DNA from: a bacterium HR33
GTDB lineage: Bacteria; Gemmatimonadota; Gemmatimonadetes; Gemmatimonadales; GWC2-71-9
Direction of reading: 5' to 3'
DNA: 44,846 bases
NCBI GenBank assembly: GCA_945889655.1
Contig: CAMDCH010000002.1
Location: 1 to 44,846, forward strand
Positions 9,632-17,251 of this stretch are shown piece after piece; the first letter of the stretch is position 1; each line of letters opens with the position of its first letter. A program made the translations under genes and the position numbers. The notes beneath the pieces were generated by a model. That model searched no databases, was not told the DNA's origin, and saw nothing but the letters and a program-made list of their open reading frames with translations.

Positions 9632-10861
9632 TTAGCGCGAGTGGCGGGACTCCAGCTCGGCGATGACTTCGTCCAGCGTGACGCCCTTGGCCCGCATCTC
9701 CACCAGGGCATGATAGAAGAGGTCGCCCGCTTCCCACCGGGCGTTTTCCCGGGTCGGCGATACCGCCAGCTCCTCGGCCTCCTCCAGCAGCTTCTCCCTT
9801 CGGAGGGCCGCGTCGCCCAGGAGCTTCTTCGTATAGCTCGTGCCCGTGCCGGCAGCATCGCGTTGCGCGATGACCTGTTCCAGGCGCTCGAGGCTGAACG
9901 GCCGATCTCCGAAACAGGACTCCGTGAGCTTGTGGCAGGAAGGACCCGAAGGCTCGACCAGGAAGAGGAGCGTGTCGCGGTCGCAGTCCACTTCGACCCG
10001 CACGAGTTTTTGCGTATTCCCGGATTCCTCGCCCTTCTTCCACCGGCCCCGCCGGCGGGAGAAGAGGATGGTGGCACCTTCCTGGATGGCCTCGCGCAGC
10101 GTTTCCGGCGTAGACCGCGAGAACATGAGGACCCGCCCGTCCCGCACATCCTGCACGATCGTGGGAATGACGCCGCCGTTCGATTCGAAACCCGTGACGG
10201 CCACGAGGCAGTCGCCCGGGGTGAACCGCCCCTTGTAGAGCGACATCCCCACCTGCGCATCGATGCCAAGGCGGTCGAGGGTCACGATCTCGTCGAGTGA
10301 CTTGATGCCACCGGCTGCCGTGATGGGCACCTGGGTGGCCTCCGCCATTTCACGAATGCGCGTGAGGTCGATCCCCTTCTCCGATCCCTCGAGGTCCACC
10401 AGCGTGTAGAGGAATCCCGACACGTAGGGCGCGAGCCGCTTCGCCCGGTCGATCGGCGACTCGCCCGTGTACGCGGTCCATCCCTGGTCCACCACCTGCC
10501 CGCGCTCCGCGTCCACCGCCGCCATCACGCGGGCCTTCGGGAACTGCGAGAGAAACTCGGGCTCGGCCTTCGTCCCGATGATGATCTTGCGGGCGCCGGC
10601 GCGCAGGAGCCGCTGGGCGCGCTCCAGGTCCCGGATCCCGCCCCCCACCCGGCAGGGCGCGATGGCGCACAGCTCTTCGACCAGCGGGAGGTTGTCTCCC
10701 TTGCCCATCGCCGCGTCGAGGTCGATCACCGCGATCTCGCCCACGCGGCCGAACTCCCGGGCCAGGTCGCGCGGATCTTTCTCCGACGTGATCACGAGCT
10801 CCTTGCCGCGACGGAGCTGGACCGCCTTGCCGTCGATCAGGTCGATGCTCGGTATCAGCAT
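9632..10861 (-). CDS. hisA-hisIE: fused ProFAR isomerase (HisA) / phosphoribosyl-AMP cyclohydrolase (HisI) / phosphoribosyl-ATP pyrophosphatase (HisE)
   Basis: N-terminus MLIPSIDLIDGKAVQLRRG...VGGGIRD...ITAAGGIKSLDE is HisA-like. The middle part IPTIVQDVRDGRVLMFSRSTPETL...GNTQKLVRVEVDCDRDTLLFLVEPSGPSCH is HisI. The C-terminus SYTKKLLGD...EAGDLFYHALV is HisE. Confidence 0.9.
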   Translation of the reverse strand: MLIPSIDLIDGKAVQLRRGKELVITSEKDPRDLAREFGRVGEIAVIDLDAAMGKGDNLPLVEELCAIAPCRVGGGIRDLERAQRLLRAGARKIIIGTKAEPEFLSQFPKARVMAAVDAERGQVVDQGWTAYTGESPIDRAKRLAPYVSGFLYTLVDLEGSEKGIDLTRIREMAEATQVPITAAGGIKSLDEIVTLDRLGIDAQVGMSLYKGRFTPGDCLVAVTGFESNGGVIPTIVQDVRDGRVLMFSRSTPETLREAIQEGATILFSRRRGRWKKGEESGNTQKLVRVEVDCDRDTLLFLVEPSGPSCHKLTESCFGDRPFSLERLEQVIAQRDAAGTGTSYTKKLLGDAALRREKLLEEAEELAVSPTRENARWEAGDLFYHALVEMRAKGVTLDEVIAELESRHSR

Positions 10862-11625
10862 GGGCGCACCTGGACGCCATTCGCCTGGAGGACCTTCTTC
10901 ACATCACCCACCGTGTAACTCCCGTCATGAAACATCCCCGCCCCCAGCGCGGCGGATGCGCGTCCCTCGCGGATCACGTCCACGAAATGCTCCGGCCGCC
11001 CGGCGCCGCCGGACGCGATGACCGGGATCGTGACCGCGGATGCGATCGCCCGCGTGAAGGTGATGTCGAACCCGTCACGCGTTCCGTCGGAATCGATCAC
11101 GTTCAGCAGGATCTCCCCCGCCCCGAAGCCCGCGACCTTCTTCGCGAACTCGAGGGCATCGATCGCGGTGTCTTCCCGGCCCCCGCGTCGCGTCAGGTGA
11201 CAGCGCTCGAAGGTCGAGTGGCGCACATCCAGCGAAACGATGACGGCCTGCGCGCCCGCCCGCTCGGCGATCTCGCCGAGGACTTCGGGCCGCGTCACCG
11301 CCGCGGATCCCACGCTGATCCGGTCCGCGCCCGAGTCGAGCAGTCGCGACGCATCCTCCCAGCTCTTCACGCCACCACCGACGGAGAACGGAACGAAGAG
11401 CTTCCGCGCCACACGCTCCACCCAGTCGAGCCGGGTGCCGCGCGGCTTGCCCGCCTCGGCCGAGGCCTCGATGTCCAGGAAGGCGATCTCATCCGCGCCC
11501 TGGTCCGCGTAACGGAGCGCGAGATCTACGAGGTCGCCCTGGTCCTTCAGGTCCTTGAACTTCACGCCCTTCACCACGCGGCCGTTCGCCACGTCGAGGC
11601 AGACGATGATGCGGGGCCAGCTCAT
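10855..11625 (-). CDS. hisF: imidazole glycerol phosphate synthase, cyclase subunit
   Basis: RIIVCLDVANGRVVKGVKFKDLKDQGDLVDLALRYADQGADEIAFLDI..., a full-length HisF barrel. It overlaps hisH (4 nt) and hisA-IE (7 nt). Confidence 0.95.
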   Translation of the reverse strand: MSWPRIIVCLDVANGRVVKGVKFKDLKDQGDLVDLALRYADQGADEIAFLDIEASAEAGKPRGTRLDWVERVARKLFVPFSVGGGVKSWEDASRLLDSGADRISVGSAAVTRPEVLGEIAERAGAQAVIVSLDVRHSTFERCHLTRRGGREDTAIDALEFAKKVAGFGAGEILLNVIDSDGTRDGFDITFTRAIASAVTIPVIASGGAGRPEHFVDVIREGRASAALGAGMFHDGSYTVGDVKKVLQANGVQVRPC

Positions 11626-12218
11626 ATGCGGAGGTCCTGGCCGTTGAGCGAGCGCGAGAGCAGCTCCAGGCCGGGATTACCCGACCGCTCGGGGTGAAAC
11701 TGGAACCCCATGACCGCACCGCTGGAGACAATCGCGGGAAAACGCTCGCCCCACTCGGCTGTTTCCTTGACCACCGTCGGATCCTCGGGCTCCACCACGA
11801 AGCTGTGGGCGAAATAGAGCGGGGTGCGGGTCTTCCCCACCGGACACCAGCCCAGGTGCGGAAGCGGGAGGTCGTCCACGTTCAGCCTGCGCACATGACC
11901 CCCGAGGATCCCGATCCCCTGGACCCCCGGAGCTTCCTCGGACCAGCCGAACAACATCTGGAGGCCGAGACAGACTCCCACGACTCGGCGCCCGGAAGCG
12001 GCAGCGGCGCGGATGCTGTCCGCGACACCCGACGTGTTGATGGTGTTCATCGCGGCGCCGTAGTTCCCCACGCCGGGAAGCAGGATGGGGCCTTCCGCCG
12101 GCAGGTCCGCGGGCGCACGCACCAGCTTCTGCGGAAGGCCGAGCTCTTCCATCGCGCGGCGGGCATTGCCCAGGTTGCCCGCGCCATAGTCGATCACCGC
12201 GACTTCGAACGACTTCAC
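11622..12218 (-). CDS. hisH: imidazole glycerol phosphate synthase, glutamine amidotransferase subunit
   Basis: VAVIDYGAGNLGNARRAMEELG...GVCLGLQMLF (catalytic Cys)...FQFHPERS, a class I GATase of HisH type. Confidence 0.95.
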   Translation of the reverse strand: MKSFEVAVIDYGAGNLGNARRAMEELGLPQKLVRAPADLPAEGPILLPGVGNYGAAMNTINTSGVADSIRAAAASGRRVVGVCLGLQMLFGWSEEAPGVQGIGILGGHVRRLNVDDLPLPHLGWCPVGKTRTPLYFAHSFVVEPEDPTVVKETAEWGERFPAIVSSGAVMGFQFHPERSGNPGLELLSRSLNGQDLRI

Positions 12219-12844
12219 TCCAGCACGCCTTTTGTGCTCGGTATCGAGCCGCCGCGGGCGGGGTCACGGGAAACCGCGAGCCCAAGCGCCGCACCGGCGC
12301 TCTTGAAGAGCGCCTCGATCTTGTGGTGTTCGTTCTCTCCGTACTGGACCCGCACGTGCCAGTTGGCCTTGCTCGCGTTCGCCAGCGACTTGAAGAACTC
12401 CGGGAGCAGGTCGAGATCGAGATCGCCCTGCCGGTCCTTCGCGAACCGCGCGTCGAAGACGCAGTAGGGACGGCCCGACAGGTCCACCGCGCAGAAACCC
12501 AGCGCGTCATCCATCGGGACCGACGCACTGGCGGCCCGGCGGATGCCGCGCCGCTCGCCCAGCGCTTCGCGCAGCGCCTGCCCCAGCGCGAGACCCACAT
12601 CTTCGACCGTGTGATGCTGGTCGACCTGGACATCGCCTTTCGCCTCCAGCGTGAGATCCAGGTTGGCGAATCGGCAGAACGCGTCCAGCATGTGGCTGAA
12701 GAACGGAATCGGCGTCTCGATCTTCGTGGCACCGCTGCCATCCACGTTCAGCTCGAGCCTGATGGTCGTTTCGCCGGTCTTGCGCGATACCGACGCTCGC
12801 CGCCCCAAAGGCTTCGCGGGTGACCCCTTCCGCTTCGGACTCAT
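12215..12844 (-). CDS. hisB: imidazoleglycerol-phosphate dehydratase (monofunctional)
   Basis: RKTGETTIRLELNVDGSG...DQHHTVEDVGLALGQAL...GENEHHKIEALFKS. At 209 aa there is no fused phosphatase domain. Confidence 0.95.
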   Translation of the reverse strand: MSPKRKGSPAKPLGRRASVSRKTGETTIRLELNVDGSGATKIETPIPFFSHMLDAFCRFANLDLTLEAKGDVQVDQHHTVEDVGLALGQALREALGERRGIRRAASASVPMDDALGFCAVDLSGRPYCVFDARFAKDRQGDLDLDLLPEFFKSLANASKANWHVRVQYGENEHHKIEALFKSAGAALGLAVSRDPARGGSIPSTKGVLE

Positions 12845-14628
12845 GACTCGCTCCCCTCGTTGACGGCATCACGCTCGGCGAACACCGAAGCGATCTCCTC
12901 GGCACGGCCGATGATCGCGATGGGCTGGCCCTCGCGGAGCACCGCCTCGCGCCGGTCACCGGCGTCCGGGCCGCGCACGGCCACGGACCGGATGCCGGCG
13001 CGCTTCGCGGCCAGCAGGTCCGCCGGCCCGTCACCCACCATCCATGCCGCCTTTGCGCCGAGCTTCCGCAGGGCTGCTCTCACCGCGTCGGGCTCGGGTT
13101 TCTTCTTCTTCACGTCATCGGTGGTGATCACCGCCTTGAAGAAGCGAGCGGCTTTTCCGGCCTTCAGTGCCATGCGTGCTTCCTCGCGCGTCCGGCCTGT
13201 CACGATGCCCAGCGGAAACTGCTTCGCCAGCTTCTCGAGCGTCTTGAGCGGAAAGAGCCACTGCTCTTTGCGACAGAGTCCCGGTGTCTTCCGCGTGCCG
13301 AGGTAGATCTCCTGGAACCGGCGCTCGACCTCCTTGCGGTCGGCCTTCACGCCCAGCTTCGCCAGGGCGATGCAGGTCGCGTCGTGGTCGTCGTTGGCGT
13401 CGGTACGCTCTTTCACCGCCAGGATGCTCTCGCGGCCGGGGTTCTTCCCCGGCGGCAGGAAGCTGCGGACTGTCCGCACGATGGTTTCGTCGTAGGACTC
13501 GCGTACGTCCACCAGCACGCCATCCATGTCGAAGAGGATCGCGTCCGGCGCATCCGCCGTCAGCAGGCGCATCTCGTCCAGGAAGCGTTCGACCTCCCGG
13601 TCGGTCCCGGCGCTGATCCGCACCCATCCGCCCATGCCGGCCAGGTGGCTGCGGTTCCGGATCGCGATGCCGCGCCGCGCGAGCGCCTGCGTGACGCGGC
13701 CGGCGCGCTCCGTGTCGCCCAGGTCGAGCAGGACGAAGTTGGCGCGCGTCGGGAGGTTCTTCAGGTCCAGGTCGTCGAGACCGGCCGCCAGGCGGCGCAC
13801 GGCGCGACGTGACTGCTTCACGGTCGCGGTCACGTGCGCGCTGTCGTCGAGGGCTGCGAGGCCGAGCTCCGCGGCAGTTGCCGTGATTGGATAGGGGACA
13901 TTAATCCTGGCGAGCAGCTCGATCAGCGGGGCGCTGCCGATCAGCCCGCCGATCCGCTCGCCCGCCAGTCCCAGCGCCTTCGAGAAGGTCCGGCTCACGA
14001 GGACGTTCGGCAGCTTCACCGCGATGCGGATGGCACTCACCCCGAAGAACTCGGCGTAGGCCTCGTCCACCAGGAACAGGGTCCGCCGGTGATCCCGCGC
14101 CAGCCGCTCGAGGAATTCCAGCGCCGGGGCGGCGCCCGTCGGGTTGTCGGGATTGCCGAGCACCACCAGTCGCGGCGGCACGCCGGCGTCCTCGACCGCC
14201 GTCCGGAATCCCGCGGTGGGAAACGCGAATCCATTCGCCGCGTCCACCGGGACGGTGACGACTCTCGCTTCCCGCCGCTCGGCCGCCCACGCGTAGAGCT
14301 CGAAGGACGGTGCCGCCACGACGCAGCTGTCACCGCGGTTCAGCACGAGCTCGGCGGCCAGCGCGATGGCGGGACCAGAACCGGACGTCAGGAGCACCTG
14401 GTCGACCGAGACTTTGAGGTCCCGCGCCCACCGCTCGCGCAGGGCCTGTGGCGCCGGGTACCGCGAAAGATGCCCGCCTCCCAGCTCAGCCAGCCGGGCG
14501 AGCACCTTGGGCGATGCCCCCAGCGGGTTCTCGTTCCCGTCCAGCAGGACCGCGGGTCGCGCGCTCGTGAGGCCGCGGTACGGCGGCAGCGCGCGGACGG
14601 CTTCCCGCACCAGCTGCTCCACGCTCAT
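12841..14628 (-). CDS. hisC: histidinol-phosphate aminotransferase fused to a C-terminal HAD-superfamily phosphatase domain
   Basis: Track ORF 12841..15090 trimmed to the ATG at 14628 (MSVEQLVREAVRALPPY...), which overlaps the hisG stop (ATGA). Aminotransferase part: LDGNENPLG...SRTFSKALGLAGERIG (PLP Lys). C-terminal part: AILFDMDGVLVDV (HAD motif I)...GIVTGRTR...MVGDGPADLLAAKRAG. Confidence 0.9.
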   Translation of the reverse strand: MSVEQLVREAVRALPPYRGLTSARPAVLLDGNENPLGASPKVLARLAELGGGHLSRYPAPQALRERWARDLKVSVDQVLLTSGSGPAIALAAELVLNRGDSCVVAAPSFELYAWAAERREARVVTVPVDAANGFAFPTAGFRTAVEDAGVPPRLVVLGNPDNPTGAAPALEFLERLARDHRRTLFLVDEAYAEFFGVSAIRIAVKLPNVLVSRTFSKALGLAGERIGGLIGSAPLIELLARINVPYPITATAAELGLAALDDSAHVTATVKQSRRAVRRLAAGLDDLDLKNLPTRANFVLLDLGDTERAGRVTQALARRGIAIRNRSHLAGMGGWVRISAGTDREVERFLDEMRLLTADAPDAILFDMDGVLVDVRESYDETIVRTVRSFLPPGKNPGRESILAVKERTDANDDHDATCIALAKLGVKADRKEVERRFQEIYLGTRKTPGLCRKEQWLFPLKTLEKLAKQFPLGIVTGRTREEARMALKAGKAARFFKAVITTDDVKKKKPEPDAVRAALRKLGAKAAWMVGDGPADLLAAKRAGIRSVAVRGPDAGDRREAVLREGQPIAIIGRAEEIASVFAERDAVNEGSES

Positions 14629-15479
14629 GGAATGACCTTGCGGATCGGATACTCGAGGATGTCGCTCGCGCCCAGCTGCTTGAGCCGCGGCACGAGGCGG
14701 GGGACGTCGGCCTGCGGCACCGCGGCCTTCAGCACGTGCGAGCCGTCGGCGAGCTGGGAGACCGTGGGACTCTTCATCGCGGGCAGGAGCTTGATCACCT
14801 GGTCCAGGTTGCCGTTGGCGACGTTCATCTCCAGTATGACGCGACTCGCGGCGGCGCGCACACCACGCATGAGCAGCACGAGATCCTCGGCAAACTCCTT
14901 CACCTCCGGACGCTTCAGCGACGCCGCGGAGCCGATGAAGCGCGTCGAGGAGGACATGAGCTTCTCGACGATCACCAGGTTGTTCTCGCGCAGCGTCTGC
15001 CCCGTCGCGGAATTGTCGACGATCATGTCGGCGTCCTCGGGCGGGAAGACTTCCGTGGCCCCGTACGAGCGGACGAAACGGAACGCCCATCCCTTCTTCT
15101 CGAAGAAACGCCGCGTCAGGTTCTCGTATTCGGAAGCAACGACCAGCGGGGCCGCGCCGGACGGCGGCGGGGTCCAGCCCTGGGATGCCGCGGCCACGAT
15201 GTCTACGGGCTCCAGCTCCGTGTCATCCAGTATCTCCACCTGGCCGCCACTCTCGGAAATCCAGTCGAAGCCGGTGAAGCCAAGGTCGTGCCGGCCGAGC
15301 TCGACCAGCGCCGGGATGTTCTGCGGCTTGAGGATCTTCAGCTCGAGGCGCGGATCGCTGGCCTTCGGCCGGTAGGAACGCTCGTGCTCCTTGACCACCA
15401 GGCCCGCCTGTGCGAGCTGGGACAGGAGCGAGGTGAACATCCGGCCCTTCGGTAACGCGAGCGTTATTGGCTGTGACAT
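14625..15479 (-). CDS. hisG: ATP phosphoribosyltransferase, long form with C-terminal regulatory domain
   Basis: Track ORF 14625..15671 trimmed to the ATG at 15479 (MSQPITLALPKGRMF...). The upstream part of the ORF is translated repeat DNA. At 284 aa with a C-terminal HisG_C-like segment it is the long form. Confidence 0.93.
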   Translation of the reverse strand: MSQPITLALPKGRMFTSLLSQLAQAGLVVKEHERSYRPKASDPRLELKILKPQNIPALVELGRHDLGFTGFDWISESGGQVEILDDTELEPVDIVAAASQGWTPPPSGAAPLVVASEYENLTRRFFEKKGWAFRFVRSYGATEVFPPEDADMIVDNSATGQTLRENNLVIVEKLMSSSTRFIGSAASLKRPEVKEFAEDLVLLMRGVRAAASRVILEMNVANGNLDQVIKLLPAMKSPTVSQLADGSHVLKAAVPQADVPRLVPRLKQLGASDILEYPIRKVIP

Positions 15480-15509
15480 CGTTTTTCCTTCTCCATCCTG
15501 GAGTGTTAT

Positions 15510-15664
15510 CCTCACCCCCTTGCCCCTCTCCCTTACGGGAGAGGGGGGACCTCCATTCGAACCCTGCCTTTCGAACCCAGGCCCCGATGTCCGGACTGGG
15601 TTCGAAACCGTGAACAGTTTTCGTACTCTCCCCTCTCCCGTAGGGAGAGGGGCAGGGGGAGAGG
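15510..15664. repeat. MITE/REP-like element: two inverted copies of a ~37-nt module, each containing its own hairpin, flanking a ~75-nt core
   Basis: Left module, 15510-15546: CCTCACCCCCTTGCCCCTCTCCCTTACGGGAGAGGGG. The reverse complement of 15628-15664 is CCTCTCCCCCTGCCCCTCTCCCTACGGGAGAGGGG (1 mismatch, 2 single-nt indels). Internal hairpins are CCCCTCTCCC/GGGAGAGGGG at 15523-15546 and 15630-15652. The core has TTCGAACCC...GGGTTCGAA inverted repeats. Confidence 0.55.
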
Positions 15665-15700
15665 TAAACAAAAACCCCCGGACCCATTCGGTCCCGGGGG
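15662..15700 (-). terminator. intrinsic terminator in the hisG leader (attenuator terminator candidate)
   Basis: The minus strand reads CCCCCGGGACC-GAAUG-GGUCCGGGGG (10 bp, one bulged G) followed directly by UUUUUGUUU. Confidence 0.6.
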
Positions 15701-15728
15701 AGACAAGATCACCGTCCTGGCTTGCGGC

Positions 15729-15809
15729 TTACGCGCGCACGGCAACCTTCGTCCCAGCCGGGGCCGGACGATGATGGTGCACGTGATGCTGCTGGCCTAG
15801 AATGGTCAT
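15729..15809 (-). CDS. putative histidine-rich leader peptide of the his operon (26 aa: MTILGQQHHVHHHRPAPAGTKVAVRA)
   Basis: Hand translation of the minus strand: ATG ACC ATT CTA GGC CAG CAG CAT CAC GTG CAC CAT CAT CGT ... TAA. Five His fall within six codons. It lies upstream of hisG and 28 nt before a terminator. It is too short for the ORF track and has no Shine-Dalgarno. Confidence 0.55.
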   Translation of the reverse strand: MTILGQQHHVHHHRPAPAGTKVAVRA

Positions 15810-15818
15810 GAGGCAGGG

Positions 15819-15847
15819 AGAGTAAGGCACCACCGGGAGAGCGTCAA
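15819..15847 (-). promoter_or_regulatory. sigma70-like promoter candidate for the his leader (TTGACG-17 nt-TACTCT)
   Basis: On the minus strand TTGACG (15847-15842), a 17-nt spacer and TACTCT (15824-15819). The -10 element ends 9 nt before the leader ATG, which implies a leaderless or nearly leaderless transcript. Confidence 0.35.
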
Positions 15848-15865
15848 GGGTAGATTCAGGAGCCT

Positions 15866-17251
15866 ATGATCCACCGTTTTAGCCTGTGCGCGACCGTTGC
15901 GTTGCTGGTGCTGGCGGGACCAGCGAGCGCGCAGTCGCGGCACAAGAAGCTGAACACCCGCGTGGACTCGCTGGCCCGCAAGGCGCTGGCCGACTGGCTC
16001 ACACCCGGCATGTCCATCGCGGTATCGCGCGGCAATGACGTTCTCGTATCACGCGGATACGGCATCGCGCGCCTGATGGACAGCACGCCCGCCTCCCCGG
16101 AAACCGTCTACCCCATCGCCTCCATCACCAAGCAGTTCACCGCGGCCGCCATCATGCAGCTGGCGGAAAAGCGTCGCATCAAGCTCAAGGACGAGTTCTG
16201 GGTTCACCTGCCGGAATACGCCACCCGCCAGCGGTTCACGATCCAGCAGCTCCTGAACCACACGTCGGGTATTCCCGACTGGGCCTCGGTCCCCGATTTC
16301 GCGGGCCGCAACCAGTCCACGCTCGACCTGACGCCCCAGCAGTTCCTCGTGGCGTTCGCGAACCGTTCCTACAATTTCGCGCCCGGGCAGAAGTTCGCGT
16401 ACAGCAACGCCGGCTACTACCTGCTCGGCCTGCTCGTCGAGAAAATCTCGGGTGAGCGCTATGGGGACTACATCCGGACCCACCTGCTCGATCCGGCGCT
16501 CATGATCAACTCGAAATACTGCACCCCTGATGGGCCGCACCGCGCCCGCGGGTACCGCGCGCTCGATTCGATGATTGTGCCGGCCACCCCCATCGGCGAC
16601 GACGAGATGTATGCAGCCGCCGGACTCTGCTCCACCGCGGCCGACCTCCTCAAGTGGCCCCGTGCCCTATCCGACGGTAGCCTGATCAACAACTTCTCCT
16701 GGAAACAGATGATTGAGCCCGCCGAGCTCGCCGACGGATCAACCGTGAGCTATGGATACGGTGTCACGCTGGGCCGGCTCGGGAAGCACCGGTTCGTGGG
16801 ACATGGCGGCGCAGTAAGGGGGTTTGCCAGCCAGATCTCCTACTATCCGGATGCCGACGTCACCGTCGTAGTCCTGGCCAACTCGGAGCAAGCCGTTCCT
16901 CGCCGCATAGCTGACCAGATCGCGCGCATGGTGCTCGGCATGGTTGAGCCCAGGGTCAAAGACCTGCCCTTGGCTGCCTCCGACTTCGAGAAGTATGTCG
17001 GGGCCTACGACCTGGCCGGCACCGCGATCCAGGTTTACGAGCGCGCCGGTCGACTGATGATGAGGGTCGATGATGGCGGCGGGTCCGTCTTGCTCTACCA
17101 GGGATCCAACGAATTCGCGACCGAGGCCGACCCCACCACCACGCTCTACTTCCGAATGTCGCGAGGCTATGCGAAATCGCTGGTATTCACGACGGGAGGC
17201 CTAAGCCTGAACGCTGATAGACTAGACGCAGTGAGCACACACTCACGATAG
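15866..17251 (+). CDS. secreted serine hydrolase of the beta-lactamase/penicillin-binding (class C-like) family
   Basis: AGGAG at 15858-15862 before the ATG. Signal peptide ...LLVLAGPASAQS. SxxK motif in PIASITKQF. YSNAGYYLLG (YxN). Confidence 0.88.
   Translation: MIHRFSLCATVALLVLAGPASAQSRHKKLNTRVDSLARKALADWLTPGMSIAVSRGNDVLVSRGYGIARLMDSTPASPETVYPIASITKQFTAAAIMQLAEKRRIKLKDEFWVHLPEYATRQRFTIQQLLNHTSGIPDWASVPDFAGRNQSTLDLTPQQFLVAFANRSYNFAPGQKFAYSNAGYYLLGLLVEKISGERYGDYIRTHLLDPALMINSKYCTPDGPHRARGYRALDSMIVPATPIGDDEMYAAAGLCSTAADLLKWPRALSDGSLINNFSWKQMIEPAELADGSTVSYGYGVTLGRLGKHRFVGHGGAVRGFASQISYYPDADVTVVVLANSEQAVPRRIADQIARMVLGMVEPRVKDLPLAASDFEKYVGAYDLAGTAIQVYERAGRLMMRVDDGGGSVLLYQGSNEFATEADPTTTLYFRMSRGYAKSLVFTTGGLSLNADRLDAVSTHSR

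What the first reader, a model, noticed from the sequence alone, without database searches (positions are those of the whole stretch)
15662..15847. Histidine-rich leader ORF plus terminator upstream of hisG: candidate ribosome-mediated his attenuator
On the minus strand, 15809->15729 encodes MTILGQQHHVHHHRPAPAGTKVAVRA, with five His in six codons (CAT CAC GTG CAC CAT CAT). A strong GC hairpin followed by UUUUUGUUU (15700->15662) lies 28 nt after the TAA. The His-codon run AUCAUCGUCCGG (15775->15764) is complementary to CCAGGACGGUGAU (15720->15708), which lies between the stop codon and the terminator. By eye this gives 12 pairs including one G.U, plus one bulge. That is the kind of ribosome-sensitive pairing used in classical attenuators. 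A GGCCCCGG tract just after the His codons could alternatively sequester the CCGGGGG arm of the terminator. A TTGACG-17-TACTCT motif ends 9 nt before the ATG, which implies a leaderless leader ORF and fits the absent Shine-Dalgarno. His-leader attenuation is established for enterobacterial hisL. I am not aware of it being described for this kind of high-GC lineage.
Basis: partly seen in the sequence, partly recalled or inferred. Interest (0 to 1): 0.65.

Follow-up and report, generated by a model that had tools for sequence, protein, structure and literature searches.

The report
Histidine-sensing leader attenuator before hisG
A short histidine-rich mini-gene followed by a transcription stop signal sits in front of the histidine-synthesis operon of an uncultured lake Gemmatimonadota bacterium; it is conserved in relatives and most likely works as a classical ribosome-mediated attenuator, a known mechanism found here in a lineage and sequence family where I found no earlier description.

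Summary
On the minus strand there is a TTGACG-17-TACTCT promoter, then 9 nt later a 26-codon ORF (15809->15729) with five His in six codons. A GC hairpin with a U tract (15700->15666) follows, then hisG. The same layout occurs in all 16 other distinct Gemmatimonadota hisG loci recovered.

Comparative folding gives three mutually exclusive helices, each with compensatory changes:
- a hairpin that starts right after the His codons (1:2);
- a long antiterminator between that hairpin's loop and 3' arm and the terminator's 5' arm plus flank (2:3);
- the terminator (3:4).

A ribosome stalled on the His codons frees region 2.

Its secondary suggestion (GGCCCCGG sequestering the terminator arm) is the conserved one.

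No Rfam family matches (His_leader, T-box). Leaderless leader ORFs are already known in Actinobacteria.

His-leader ORFs also precede 70 of 120 loci of this hisG clade across several phyla.

No transcript or physiological data exist.

Verdict: a real, well-supported new member of a known kind, of moderate interest.

The parts
15842..15847 (-). -35 hexamer TTGACG of the leader promoter
   Evidence: TTGAC[GCA] is conserved at the same distance in all 17 Gemmatimonadota loci. The E. coli-consensus scan did not call it because the -10 is of the TAnnnT type.
15819..15824 (-). -10 hexamer TACTCT (TAnnnT type). It lies 17 nt after the -35 and 9 nt before the ATG.
   Evidence: Relatives have TACTCT, TACTGT, TAGTCT, TAACCT, TAGCCT, TACGAT, TAGAGT or TACCGT, 6-12 nt before the start codon. 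This implies a 5' UTR of about 0-5 nt, that is a leaderless or near-leaderless ORF (inference; no TSS data).
15729..15809 (-). Leader ORF hisL-like, 26 codons plus TAA: MTILGQQHHVHHHRPAPAGTKVAVRA
   Evidence: Orthologous ORFs of 25-33 aa with 4-6 His are present in all relatives. There is no Shine-Dalgarno sequence.
15771..15788 (-). Regulatory His codons (CAU CAC GUG CAC CAU CAU): the proposed sensor of charged tRNA-His
   Evidence: The pattern HH[AV]xHH(H) is conserved. CAU makes up 54% of leader His codons against 19% in window genes.
15750..15770 (-). Hairpin P1 (region 1:2, anti-antiterminator and possible pause hairpin), CGUCCGGCC-CCGG-CUGGGACG. It starts on the codon after the last His.
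   Evidence: It is the RNAalifold consensus on the full-length alignment: 5 pairs, with one G-C to A-U compensatory pair in 4 sequences. Energy is -12.4 kcal/mol in the window and -14.9 on average. It appears in every MFE structure.
15739..15766 (-). Region 2: 5' strand of the antiterminator. It comprises the 3' end of P1's 5' arm, P1's loop and 3' arm, and the following GAAGGUUGCCG.
   Evidence: Folding with the ribosome masked to A-site+13 gives this pairing in all 15 loci folded in that run. The duplex with region 3 is -24.1 kcal/mol in the window and -22 to -32 in relatives.
15689..15715 (-). Region 3: 3' strand of the antiterminator. It comprises the spacer ACGGUGAUCUUGUCU plus the terminator 5' arm.
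   Evidence: The RNAalifold consensus on the truncated alignment has 10 pairs, 4 with compensatory changes. On the CM-based alignment 78.9% of cells are paired, against 40-62% when slid.
15666..15700 (-). Intrinsic terminator (region 3:4): CCCCCGGGACC-GAAUG-GGUCCGGGGG followed by UUUUUGUUU
   Evidence: A comparable GC hairpin with a U tract lies 15-35 nt after the stop codon in all relatives. RNAalifold gives 8 consensus pairs, 4 of them compensatory.
15510..15663 (-). REP/MITE-like palindromic insert between the terminator and the hisG ribosome-binding site. It is not part of the conserved attenuator but lies within the read-through transcript.
   Evidence: It folds into a near-perfect hairpin of -115.6 kcal/mol, z = -8.9, with inverted repeats. 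It is absent at this position in most relatives. Its ~38-nt end modules recur in other contigs of lake, soil and sediment metagenomes.
14625..15494 (-). hisG: SD GGAGAAGGA at 15494-15486, ATG at 15479, 284 aa, long-form ATP phosphoribosyltransferase. This is the regulated gene.
   Evidence: PF01634 + PF08029; best hits are Gemmatimonadetes, 81-88% identity.
9632..14631 (-). Rest of the his operon: hisC fused to a HAD phosphatase, hisB (IGPD), hisH, hisA/F-type barrel, and hisF fused to hisI-hisE
   Evidence: Pfam scan.

Best explanation
This is a classical ribosome-mediated transcription attenuator of the his operon. It belongs to a sequence family that Rfam does not cover.

Proposed sequence of events:
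1. Transcription starts at a TTGACG-17-TACTCT promoter, a few nucleotides before or at the AUG of a 26-codon leader ORF. The ORF has no Shine-Dalgarno sequence, so translation is probably leaderless.
2. The ORF carries five His codons within six (codons 8-13).
3. Directly after them the RNA forms hairpin P1 (region 1:2).
4. When charged tRNA-His is plentiful, the ribosome runs on to the stop codon, which lies 28 nt before the terminator. P1 re-forms behind it. Region 3 stays free and pairs with region 4, giving a GC hairpin with a U tract. Transcription stops before hisG.
5. When His-tRNA is scarce, the ribosome stalls with one of the later His codons in the A site. It then covers the 5' arm of P1.
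6. The freed region 2 (GGCCCCGGCUGGGACGAAGG...) pairs with region 3 as soon as region 3 is made. Region 3 is the terminator's 5' arm plus about 12 nt upstream of it. The result is a 20-22 bp antiterminator enclosing a small hairpin that holds the stop codon.
7. The terminator cannot form, and RNA polymerase reads into hisG-hisC/N-hisB-hisH-hisA-hisF/IE.

Shown here: the sequence elements, their conservation, the three mutually exclusive helices and their covariation.

Inferred: the transcription start, leaderless translation, ribosome stalling, kinetic competition between the helices, and the response to histidine.
For: - The elements are present at the stated coordinates.
- All 17 distinct Gemmatimonadota loci share the same order and spacing: promoter, then a start codon 6-12 nt after the -10, then an ORF with 4-6 His, then a stop, then 15-35 nt, then a GC hairpin with a U tract, then hisG. 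hisG identity among these loci goes down to about 65%.
- In most relatives only about 25-45 nt separate the U tract from the hisG start. That leaves no room for a separate promoter.
- With a ribosome masked at the middle His codon, the MFE fold shows the same region 2:3 helix in all 15 loci tested.
- Before the 3' arm emerges, the terminator's 5' arm is sequestered with mean probability about 0.90 when the ribosome is stalled. The figure is about 0.49 with the ribosome at the stop codon.
- The core sequences change together between lineages: CCCCGG/CCGGGG, CUUCGG/CCGGAG and CCUCGG/CCGAGG.
- RNAalifold, run independently, returns the antiterminator on truncated RNAs (10 pairs, 4 compensatory). 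On full RNAs it returns P1 plus the terminator (13 pairs, 5 compensatory).
- On a CM-based alignment 78.9% of cells are paired, against 40-62% after sliding. Eight pairs have double changes.
- Region 2:3 duplexes are -22 to -32 kcal/mol, usually 2-4 sd better than shuffles.
- The amino acids after the His run vary (PAPAG, PTPVG, PASAG) in step with the RNA pairing. The constraint is therefore on the RNA, not the peptide.
- The gene downstream is the first gene of a his operon.
- Leaderless leader peptides followed by terminators are documented in Actinobacteria (PMC8079986).
Against: - No transcript data could be found for this or any related locus. The start site, the short terminated RNA and any histidine response are therefore untested.
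- At equilibrium the terminator conformation is on average about 7 kcal/mol more stable than the antiterminated one, even with the ribosome stalled (range -1 to +22). The antiterminator must therefore win kinetically. My recollection, not checked here, is that the E. coli trp attenuator also relies on such a kinetic race.
- With no ribosome at all, equilibrium folding also sequesters the 5' arm in many loci (mean 0.74). The no-translation state is thus not cleanly separated from the stalled state by thermodynamics.
- Covariation statistics on a fixed-column alignment are modest (covariation score reached by 13 of 500 shuffles). The outer helix has variable bulges, and the core is near-palindromic CCCCGGGG.
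- The lower helix between the His codons and the ORF end is not better than shuffles (mean z = -0.9).
- The -10 element is weak by the E. coli consensus.
Confidence: 0.85

Rival explanations
1. The leader senses histidine as proposed, but the switch uses the first reader's pairing. In this version the His-codon tail and P1 5' arm (AUCAUCGUCCGG) pair with the spacer CCAGGACGGUGAU, and a stalled ribosome releases that spacer.
For: The pairing exists in the window: 12 pairs, -21.1 kcal/mol, z = -4.2, matched by 1 of 300 shuffles.
Against: It is not conserved. Across all 17 loci the mean z against shuffles is +0.1. Among the 16 relatives none approaches the window's value; the strongest are z about -1.2 to -1.3 in L070 and L143. 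It is absent from the window's own MFE fold. The spacer segment is instead used as the outer part of the conserved antiterminator.
Confidence: 0.05
2. The ORF encodes a functional small His-rich peptide, for example a metal-binding one. The hairpin would then simply be the terminator of that small gene, with hisG transcribed from elsewhere.
For: The His motif is conserved at the peptide level.
Against: The C-terminal half is conserved as RNA pairing and not as peptide, with compensatory codon changes. In relatives there is no room for a hisG promoter after the terminator. The ORF is always linked to hisG and is found in 70 of 120 loci of this hisG clade across phyla. The peptide is 25-33 aa with no signal or domain features.
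Confidence: 0.03
3. Regulation is by another RNA mechanism, with the His codons incidental. Candidates are a T-box, a riboswitch, a protein-mediated antiterminator of the HutP or TRAP type, or Rho.
For: T-boxes control his genes in some Firmicutes and Actinobacteria (PMC9413887).
Against: No Rfam family matches at E <= 10 in the window region or at E <= 0.1 in 19 related loci. The leader is only about 145 nt and has no specifier or T-box features. The His run is the most conserved coding feature. No candidate regulator gene is linked to the locus.
Confidence: 0.04
4. The stalled ribosome acts mainly on translation or mRNA stability of hisG rather than on transcription termination. This would resemble the translational attenuation of mycobacterial Cys leaderless sORFs.
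For: Leaderless sensory sORFs that control translation are known (10.1101/834739).
Against: A canonical GC hairpin with a U tract is conserved in 17 of 17 loci. The hisG SD is not part of any conserved pairing, and in the window it lies about 170 nt downstream, beyond an inserted palindrome.
Confidence: 0.03

Closest known systems
Enterobacterial his operon leader (hisL; Rfam His_leader RF00514)
   Same: A short ORF with a run of His codons sits upstream of hisG. Alternative hairpins end in an intrinsic terminator. The logic is the same: a ribosome stalled on His codons favours the antiterminator (PMC9413887 summarises the mechanism).
   Different: There is no detectable match to RF00514. This leader has 5 His interrupted by Val or Ala, where from memory E. 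coli has 7 consecutive. It has no Shine-Dalgarno sequence and a promoter placed for a leaderless ORF. It follows a three-helix 1:2 / 2:3 / 3:4 layout with a long-range 2:3 helix enclosing the stop codon. From memory, the Salmonella/E. coli his leader uses a six-segment A-F scheme instead.
Leaderless leader-peptide attenuators of Actinobacteria (Streptomyces lividans leuL, trpL, ilvL; Corynebacterium glutamicum ilvBNC, trp, leuA, aroF)
   Same: High-GC genomes with TAnnnT/nTGACn promoters. The leader ORF starts at the transcript's 5' end. It is followed by hairpins and a U-rich stretch (PMC8079986; PMC11857589; Neshat et al. 2014 as cited there).
   Different: The phylum differs (Gemmatimonadota) and so does the amino acid (His). 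In Actinobacteria leaderless transcription was shown by TSS mapping. Here it is only inferred from promoter spacing.
His-leader attenuators of Firmicutes (Bacillus cereus group, Peptostreptococcaceae, Erysipelotrichales)
   Same: They were predicted by the same comparative logic: a leader with 3-5 His codons plus terminator and antiterminator upstream of his genes. They too do not match RF00514 (PMC9413887; PMC2965389).
   Different: The sequences are unrelated. They are low-GC, SD-led ORFs located upstream of hisZ or other his operons.
Polycysteine leaderless sORF attenuators of mycobacteria
   Same: A leaderless sensory sORF enriched in the cognate codon, with a stalled ribosome remodelling downstream RNA (10.1101/834739).
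   Different: [quoted passage not shown] Here a canonical intrinsic terminator is conserved.

Membership tests
Ribosome-mediated (leader-peptide) transcription attenuators | Short ORF upstream of a biosynthetic operon, enriched in codons for the amino acid the operon makes | tested here: met
   26-codon ORF with 5 His in 6 codons upstream of hisG. Conserved in 17 of 17 Gemmatimonadota loci.
Ribosome-mediated (leader-peptide) transcription attenuators | Intrinsic terminator between the leader ORF and the first structural gene | tested here: met
   GC hairpin of -19.7 kcal/mol followed by UUUUUGUUU. Present in all relatives.
Ribosome-mediated (leader-peptide) transcription attenuators | Antiterminator helix mutually exclusive with the terminator, formed when the ribosome occupies the regulatory codons | tested here: met
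   In silico only. The region 2:3 helix appears in all 15 loci folded with a stalled ribosome. RNAalifold gives a consensus with 4 compensatory pairs. 78.9% of cells are paired against 40-62% when slid. Duplex energies are -22 to -32 kcal/mol.
Ribosome-mediated (leader-peptide) transcription attenuators | Upstream hairpin (1:2) that holds region 2 when the ribosome is not stalled | tested here: met
   P1 hairpin directly after the His codons. It is the RNAalifold consensus, with G-C to A-U compensation in 4 sequences. Mean energy -14.9 kcal/mol.
Ribosome-mediated (leader-peptide) transcription attenuators | Leader is translated, a short terminated transcript exists, and read-through rises when charged tRNA is scarce | not testable with these tools
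   No RNA runs hold the locus. The one RNA contig found lies inside hisG of a relative.
Rfam His_leader (RF00514) | Match to the family covariance model at or near its gathering score | tested here: not met
   No hit at E <= 10 in window 14500-17000. No hit at E <= 0.1 in 19 related loci.
T-box leader | Match to the T-box covariance model (specifier loop, T-box sequence) | tested here: not met
   No hit.
Leaderless leader-ORF attenuators (Actinobacteria type) | Transcription starts at or within a few nt of the leader start codon, with no Shine-Dalgarno sequence | tested here: inconclusive
   The conserved -10 lies 6-12 nt before the start codon, followed by a C/U-rich tract and no SD, in 17 loci. 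No TSS data are available.

The most novel reading that the evidence does not exclude
The window's element may be one member of a large unannotated family of His-leader attenuators. This family would travel with one clade of long-form hisG across at least Gemmatimonadota and Acidobacteriota, and perhaps Planctomycetota (Pirellulaceae), Melainabacteria and Myxococcota. It would be co-inherited or co-transferred with the gene rather than re-invented in each lineage.

Evidence so far:
- 70 of 120 loci of this clade carry a His-rich leader ORF, 62 of them with a terminator, against 0 of 120 on the opposite strand.
- A covariance model built only from Gemmatimonadota leaders finds the Acidobacteriota leaders, including both units of tandem attenuators, at E down to 5.5e-8. 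All 26 hits fall on the sense strand, and those I checked against the table coincide with predicted leader ORFs.
- Leader peptides are alike: MTLTALTHHHASHH... in Gemmatimonadota against MTLTSRHHASHH... in Holophaga.

Convergence on the same short features (AUG, CAY run, GC hairpin, U tract) is not excluded.
Probability: 0.45. Interest if true: 0.55.

Novelty: new member of a known kind. Interest (0 to 1): 0.42.

Why it matters
It extends leader-peptide attenuation of histidine biosynthesis to Gemmatimonadota, a poorly studied and mostly uncultured phylum. Beyond the gamma-proteobacterial family, such attenuation is so far catalogued mainly in a few Firmicutes and Actinobacteria.

It provides a clean 17-sequence comparative model of the switch: promoter, leaderless-type ORF, and 1:2 / 2:3 / 3:4 helices with covariation. 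This could seed a new RNA family and improve annotation of metagenomic genomes.

It also gives a sequence-level hint that Gemmatimonadota use leaderless translation for regulatory ORFs. Finally, it points to a much wider, unannotated set of His leaders in Acidobacteriota, Planctomycetota and Melainabacteria.

The mechanism itself would not surprise a specialist.

Tried and rejected
- Rfam scans: permissive for the window region, and E <= 0.1 for 19 related loci. No His_leader, T-box or other relevant family matched. The only hit over the region is a spurious miRNA match to the palindromic insert.
- Promoter scan with the E. coli consensus: nothing was called, because the -10 is of the TAnnnT type.
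- A lower helix between the His codons (CACGCG) and the ORF end (CGCGUG): present in most MFE folds but not better than shuffles. I keep it only as a weak possibility.
- Equilibrium thermodynamics as a discriminator: the terminator state is usually more stable even when the ribosome is stalled. Only a kinetic reading works.
- DNA pattern scan of genomes with the P1 core (CCGGCCCCGGCYGGRRCKARG): the listed hits were almost all chance matches in GC-rich genomes, and those I read lay in coding sequence. It recovered only the already known L070 locus. A hit in another Gemmatimonadetes MAG lies upstream of clpP and has no His ORF.
- RNA evidence: no RNA runs hold the window or L070. For L072 there is one 152-nt metatranscriptome contig inside hisG, which is uninformative.
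- MAFFT columns were not structurally exact for the outer antiterminator and the terminator 3' arm. I therefore used per-sequence folding, RNAalifold and a CM-based realignment instead.
- Eight exact-protein look-ups for more loci: one returned no DNA (sample file too large), five were duplicates of loci already held, and two distinct leaders were added.
Full report
**Observation**

- TTGACG lies at 15847->15842, followed by a 17-nt spacer and TACTCT at 15824->15819.
- Nine nucleotides later comes an ATG at 15809, with no purine-rich Shine-Dalgarno sequence.
- It opens a 26-codon ORF, MTILGQQHHVHHHRPAPAGTKVAVRA, ending in TAA at 15731-15729.
- Five of six consecutive codons (15788->15771: CAU CAC GUG CAC CAU CAU) are His.
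- Twenty-eight nucleotides after the stop lies CCCCCGGGACC-GAAUG-GGUCCGGGGG (15700->15675; -19.7 kcal/mol), followed by UUUUUGUUU (15674->15666).
- The terminator scan finds this hairpin. One hit against 0.6 expected is not significant on its own.
- The pairing AUCAUCGUCCGG / CCAGGACGGUGAU is also real: -21.1 kcal/mol, equalled by 1 of 300 shuffles.
- Contigs of two lake-water metagenome runs reproduce the region without a difference.

**Context**

- The gene downstream starts at ATG 15479, preceded by the SD GGAGAAGGA. It is a 284-aa long-form ATP phosphoribosyltransferase, HisG with the HisG_C domain.
- It heads an operon: hisG, hisC fused to a HAD phosphatase, hisB, hisH, a HisA/F-type barrel, and hisF fused to hisI-hisE.
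- The upstream gene (15866-17251, + strand) is divergent and encodes a beta-lactamase-family serine hydrolase. The hairpin therefore cannot be that gene's terminator.
- The closest HisG proteins come from Gemmatimonadetes MAGs, at 81-88% identity.
- The window itself occurs in lake-water metagenomes.

**Conservation**

I collected loci in three ways: protein-guided scans of genome and metagenome contigs, and exact-protein look-ups. Together they gave 16 further distinct Gemmatimonadota hisG loci, with HisG identity down to about 65%.

Every one has the same layout:
- TTGAC[GCA], then 17-18 nt, then a TAnnnT-type hexamer;
- a start codon (ATG, once GTG) 6-12 nt later, with only C/U-rich sequence between;
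- an ORF of 25-33 codons with 4-6 His in the pattern HH[A/V]xHH(H);
- a stop codon, then 15-35 nt, then a GC hairpin of -15 to -32 kcal/mol with a U tract;
- then hisG.

In most relatives only about 25-45 nt separate the U tract from the hisG start. hisG must therefore be transcribed through this element.

**Structure and mechanism**

Full-length leaders fold with the terminator formed in all 17 loci. They also form a hairpin, P1, that begins on the codon after the last His. In the window P1 is CGUCCGGCC-CCGG-CUGGGACG at 15770->15750.

Next I masked the RNA up to 13 nt past a His codon in the A site, and withheld the terminator's 3' arm as not yet transcribed. The MFE structure then switches in all 15 loci tested. 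In the new structure:
- the loop and 3' arm of P1 plus the following purine-rich stretch form region 2 (15766->15739 in the window);
- region 2 pairs with the terminator's 5' arm plus about 12 nt upstream of it, which is region 3 (15715->15689);
- the helix encloses a small hairpin that carries the stop codon.

Before the 3' arm emerges, the 5' arm is sequestered with the following mean probabilities:

| Ribosome position | Mean probability that the 5' arm is sequestered |
|---|---|
| Stalled at the middle His codon | about 0.90 |
| At the stop codon | about 0.49 |

The region 2:3 duplexes are -22 to -32 kcal/mol, mostly 2-4 sd better than shuffles.

The three helices change together between lineages:
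- CCCCGG / CCGGGG in the window type;
- CUUCGG / CCGGAG in L073 and L148, where region 2 GGCUUCGGCGGG almost copies the terminator 3' arm GGCUUCGGGGGG;
- CCUCGG / CCGAGG in L144.

RNAalifold, without any guidance, gives two consensus structures:
- on the truncated RNAs it returns the antiterminator core: 10 pairs, 4 with compensatory changes;
- on the full RNAs it returns P1 plus the terminator: 13 pairs, 5 compensatory.

On an alignment fitted with a covariance model of the antiterminator:
- 78.9% of cells pair, against 40-62% when the partner is slid by 1-3 columns;
- eight pairs show changes on both sides;
- the covariation score is reached by 13 of 500 shuffles.

This is modest formal support. 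It is limited by variable bulges in the outer helix and by the near-palindromic core.

The peptide after the His run varies (PAPAG, PTPVG, PASAG) exactly as the pairing requires. Selection is therefore on the RNA.

This is the classical 1:2 / 2:3 / 3:4 design:
- A ribosome stalled on the later His codons covers P1's 5' arm and releases region 2, which captures region 3.
- A ribosome that reaches the stop codon lets P1 re-form, and the terminator fires.

**Caveats**

- At equilibrium the terminated conformation is on average about 7 kcal/mol more stable than the antiterminated one, even with a stalled ribosome.
- With no ribosome, the 5' arm is also often sequestered at equilibrium (mean 0.74).
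- The switch must therefore be kinetic. My recollection, not checked here, is that the E. coli trp attenuator works the same way.
- A further helix between the His codons and the ORF end appears in most MFE folds but is not better than shuffles.
- Leaders use CAU for 54% of His codons (44 of 82), against 19% (10 of 53) in ten genes of the window (Fisher p = 6e-5). This could slow decoding or could merely serve the pairing. The comparison mixes genomes.
- No RNA data exist for the window or for L070. The only RNA contig found lies inside hisG of L072.

**Comparison with what is known**

- His-leader attenuation is textbook for gamma-proteobacteria. It has been predicted in some Firmicutes (PMC9413887, PMC2965389). 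Work on Actinobacteria is cited in PMC4833913.
- The Rfam His_leader model does not match this element or its relatives, and neither does the T-box model.
- Leaderless leader ORFs followed by terminators are documented by TSS mapping in Streptomyces lividans, and discussed for Corynebacterium glutamicum (PMC8079986, PMC11857589). Leaderless sensory sORFs are known in mycobacteria (10.1101/834739). The leaderless feature is thus a known variant.
- Full-text searches found nothing on attenuators in Gemmatimonadota. Subscription literature, such as Lopatovskaya et al. 2010, could not be read.

I therefore class the element as a new member of a known kind.

**Wider picture**

- Among 120 loci of this long-form hisG clade, 70 carry a His-rich ORF (at least 4 His in 7 residues) within 400 nt upstream on the sense strand. 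Of these, 62 are followed by a terminator-like hairpin.
- None of the 120 reverse-complement controls has such an ORF.
- The positive loci are Gemmatimonadota, Acidobacteriota (8 of 8), Melainabacteria (12 of 15) and many Pirellulaceae/Mariniblastus. WOR-3, Aminicenantes, most Phycisphaerae and the MAGs labelled archaeal lack them.
- The model built only from Gemmatimonadota leaders detects the Acidobacteriota leaders at E down to 5.5e-8. All 26 hits are on the sense strand, and those I checked against the table coincide with predicted leader ORFs.
- Holophaga-type loci carry two complete attenuators in tandem.
- Whether this reflects common descent with hisG or convergence is open.

**Verdict**

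Confidence that this is a ribosome-mediated His attenuator is about 0.85. The mechanism is known, while the lineage and sequence family are new. Interest is moderate.

Noticed in passing
window 15510-15663 (minus strand), between the attenuator terminator and the hisG ribosome-binding site: A palindromic insert of about 150 nt folds into a near-perfect hairpin (-115.6 kcal/mol, z = -8.9). It is built from two inverted ~38-nt modules (CCUCUCCCCCUGCCCCUCUCCCUACGGGAGAGGGGAGAG) around a core with GGTTCGAA repeats. Most relatives lack it at this position. The ~38-nt modules recur in other contigs, with different flanks, in lake, soil and sediment metagenomes. It is therefore a REP/MITE-like dispersed repeat. 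L143 has one related module right after its terminator. Its effect on read-through transcripts is unknown.
   Followed up: partly
L003 1201-1330 and 1347-1465; L016 1201-1330 and 1357-1468 (Holophaga / Solibacteraceae MAGs): Acidobacteriota loci carry two complete His attenuators in tandem upstream of hisG, each with a leader ORF, a GC hairpin and a U tract. The second leader ends in a polyproline tail (for example MTRIAFHHHPAHPPPPG, MTFHLHHHHHPPPPG). This could add EF-P-dependent stalling.
   Followed up: partly
L029-L049 (Melainabacteria), L075-L121 (Pirellulaceae/Mariniblastus), L129 (Alphaproteobacteria MAG): His leaders in other phyla look different. Melainabacteria have 5-7 consecutive His. 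Mariniblastus has conserved MP(K/N)R(L/F)HNTHSHLHHPPR. One alphaproteobacterial MAG has an expanded (HHHV)x8 repeat in its leader.
   Followed up: partly
window 12841-14631 and 9632-10861 (minus strand): Gene fusions occur in the his operon. One is histidinol-phosphate aminotransferase fused to a HAD-family phosphatase, probably histidinol phosphatase. The other is HisF fused to HisI-HisE. No hisD was seen in the operon. The listed 749-aa ORF 12841-15090 overlaps hisG in another frame, and its real start is near 14631.
   Followed up: partly
leader ORFs of the 17 Gemmatimonadota loci; window 15771-15788: The leaders prefer the rare codon CAU (54%), against 19% in window genes. The middle non-His codon of the run is almost always GCG or GUG.
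   Followed up: partly
L247 1857-1877 (Gemmatimonadetes MAG HKST-UBA01): The 21-nt P1 core motif CCGGCCCCGGCCGGAGCGAGG also occurs just upstream of a clpP-like gene, without any His ORF. This is probably a chance match in GC-rich DNA.
   Followed up: no
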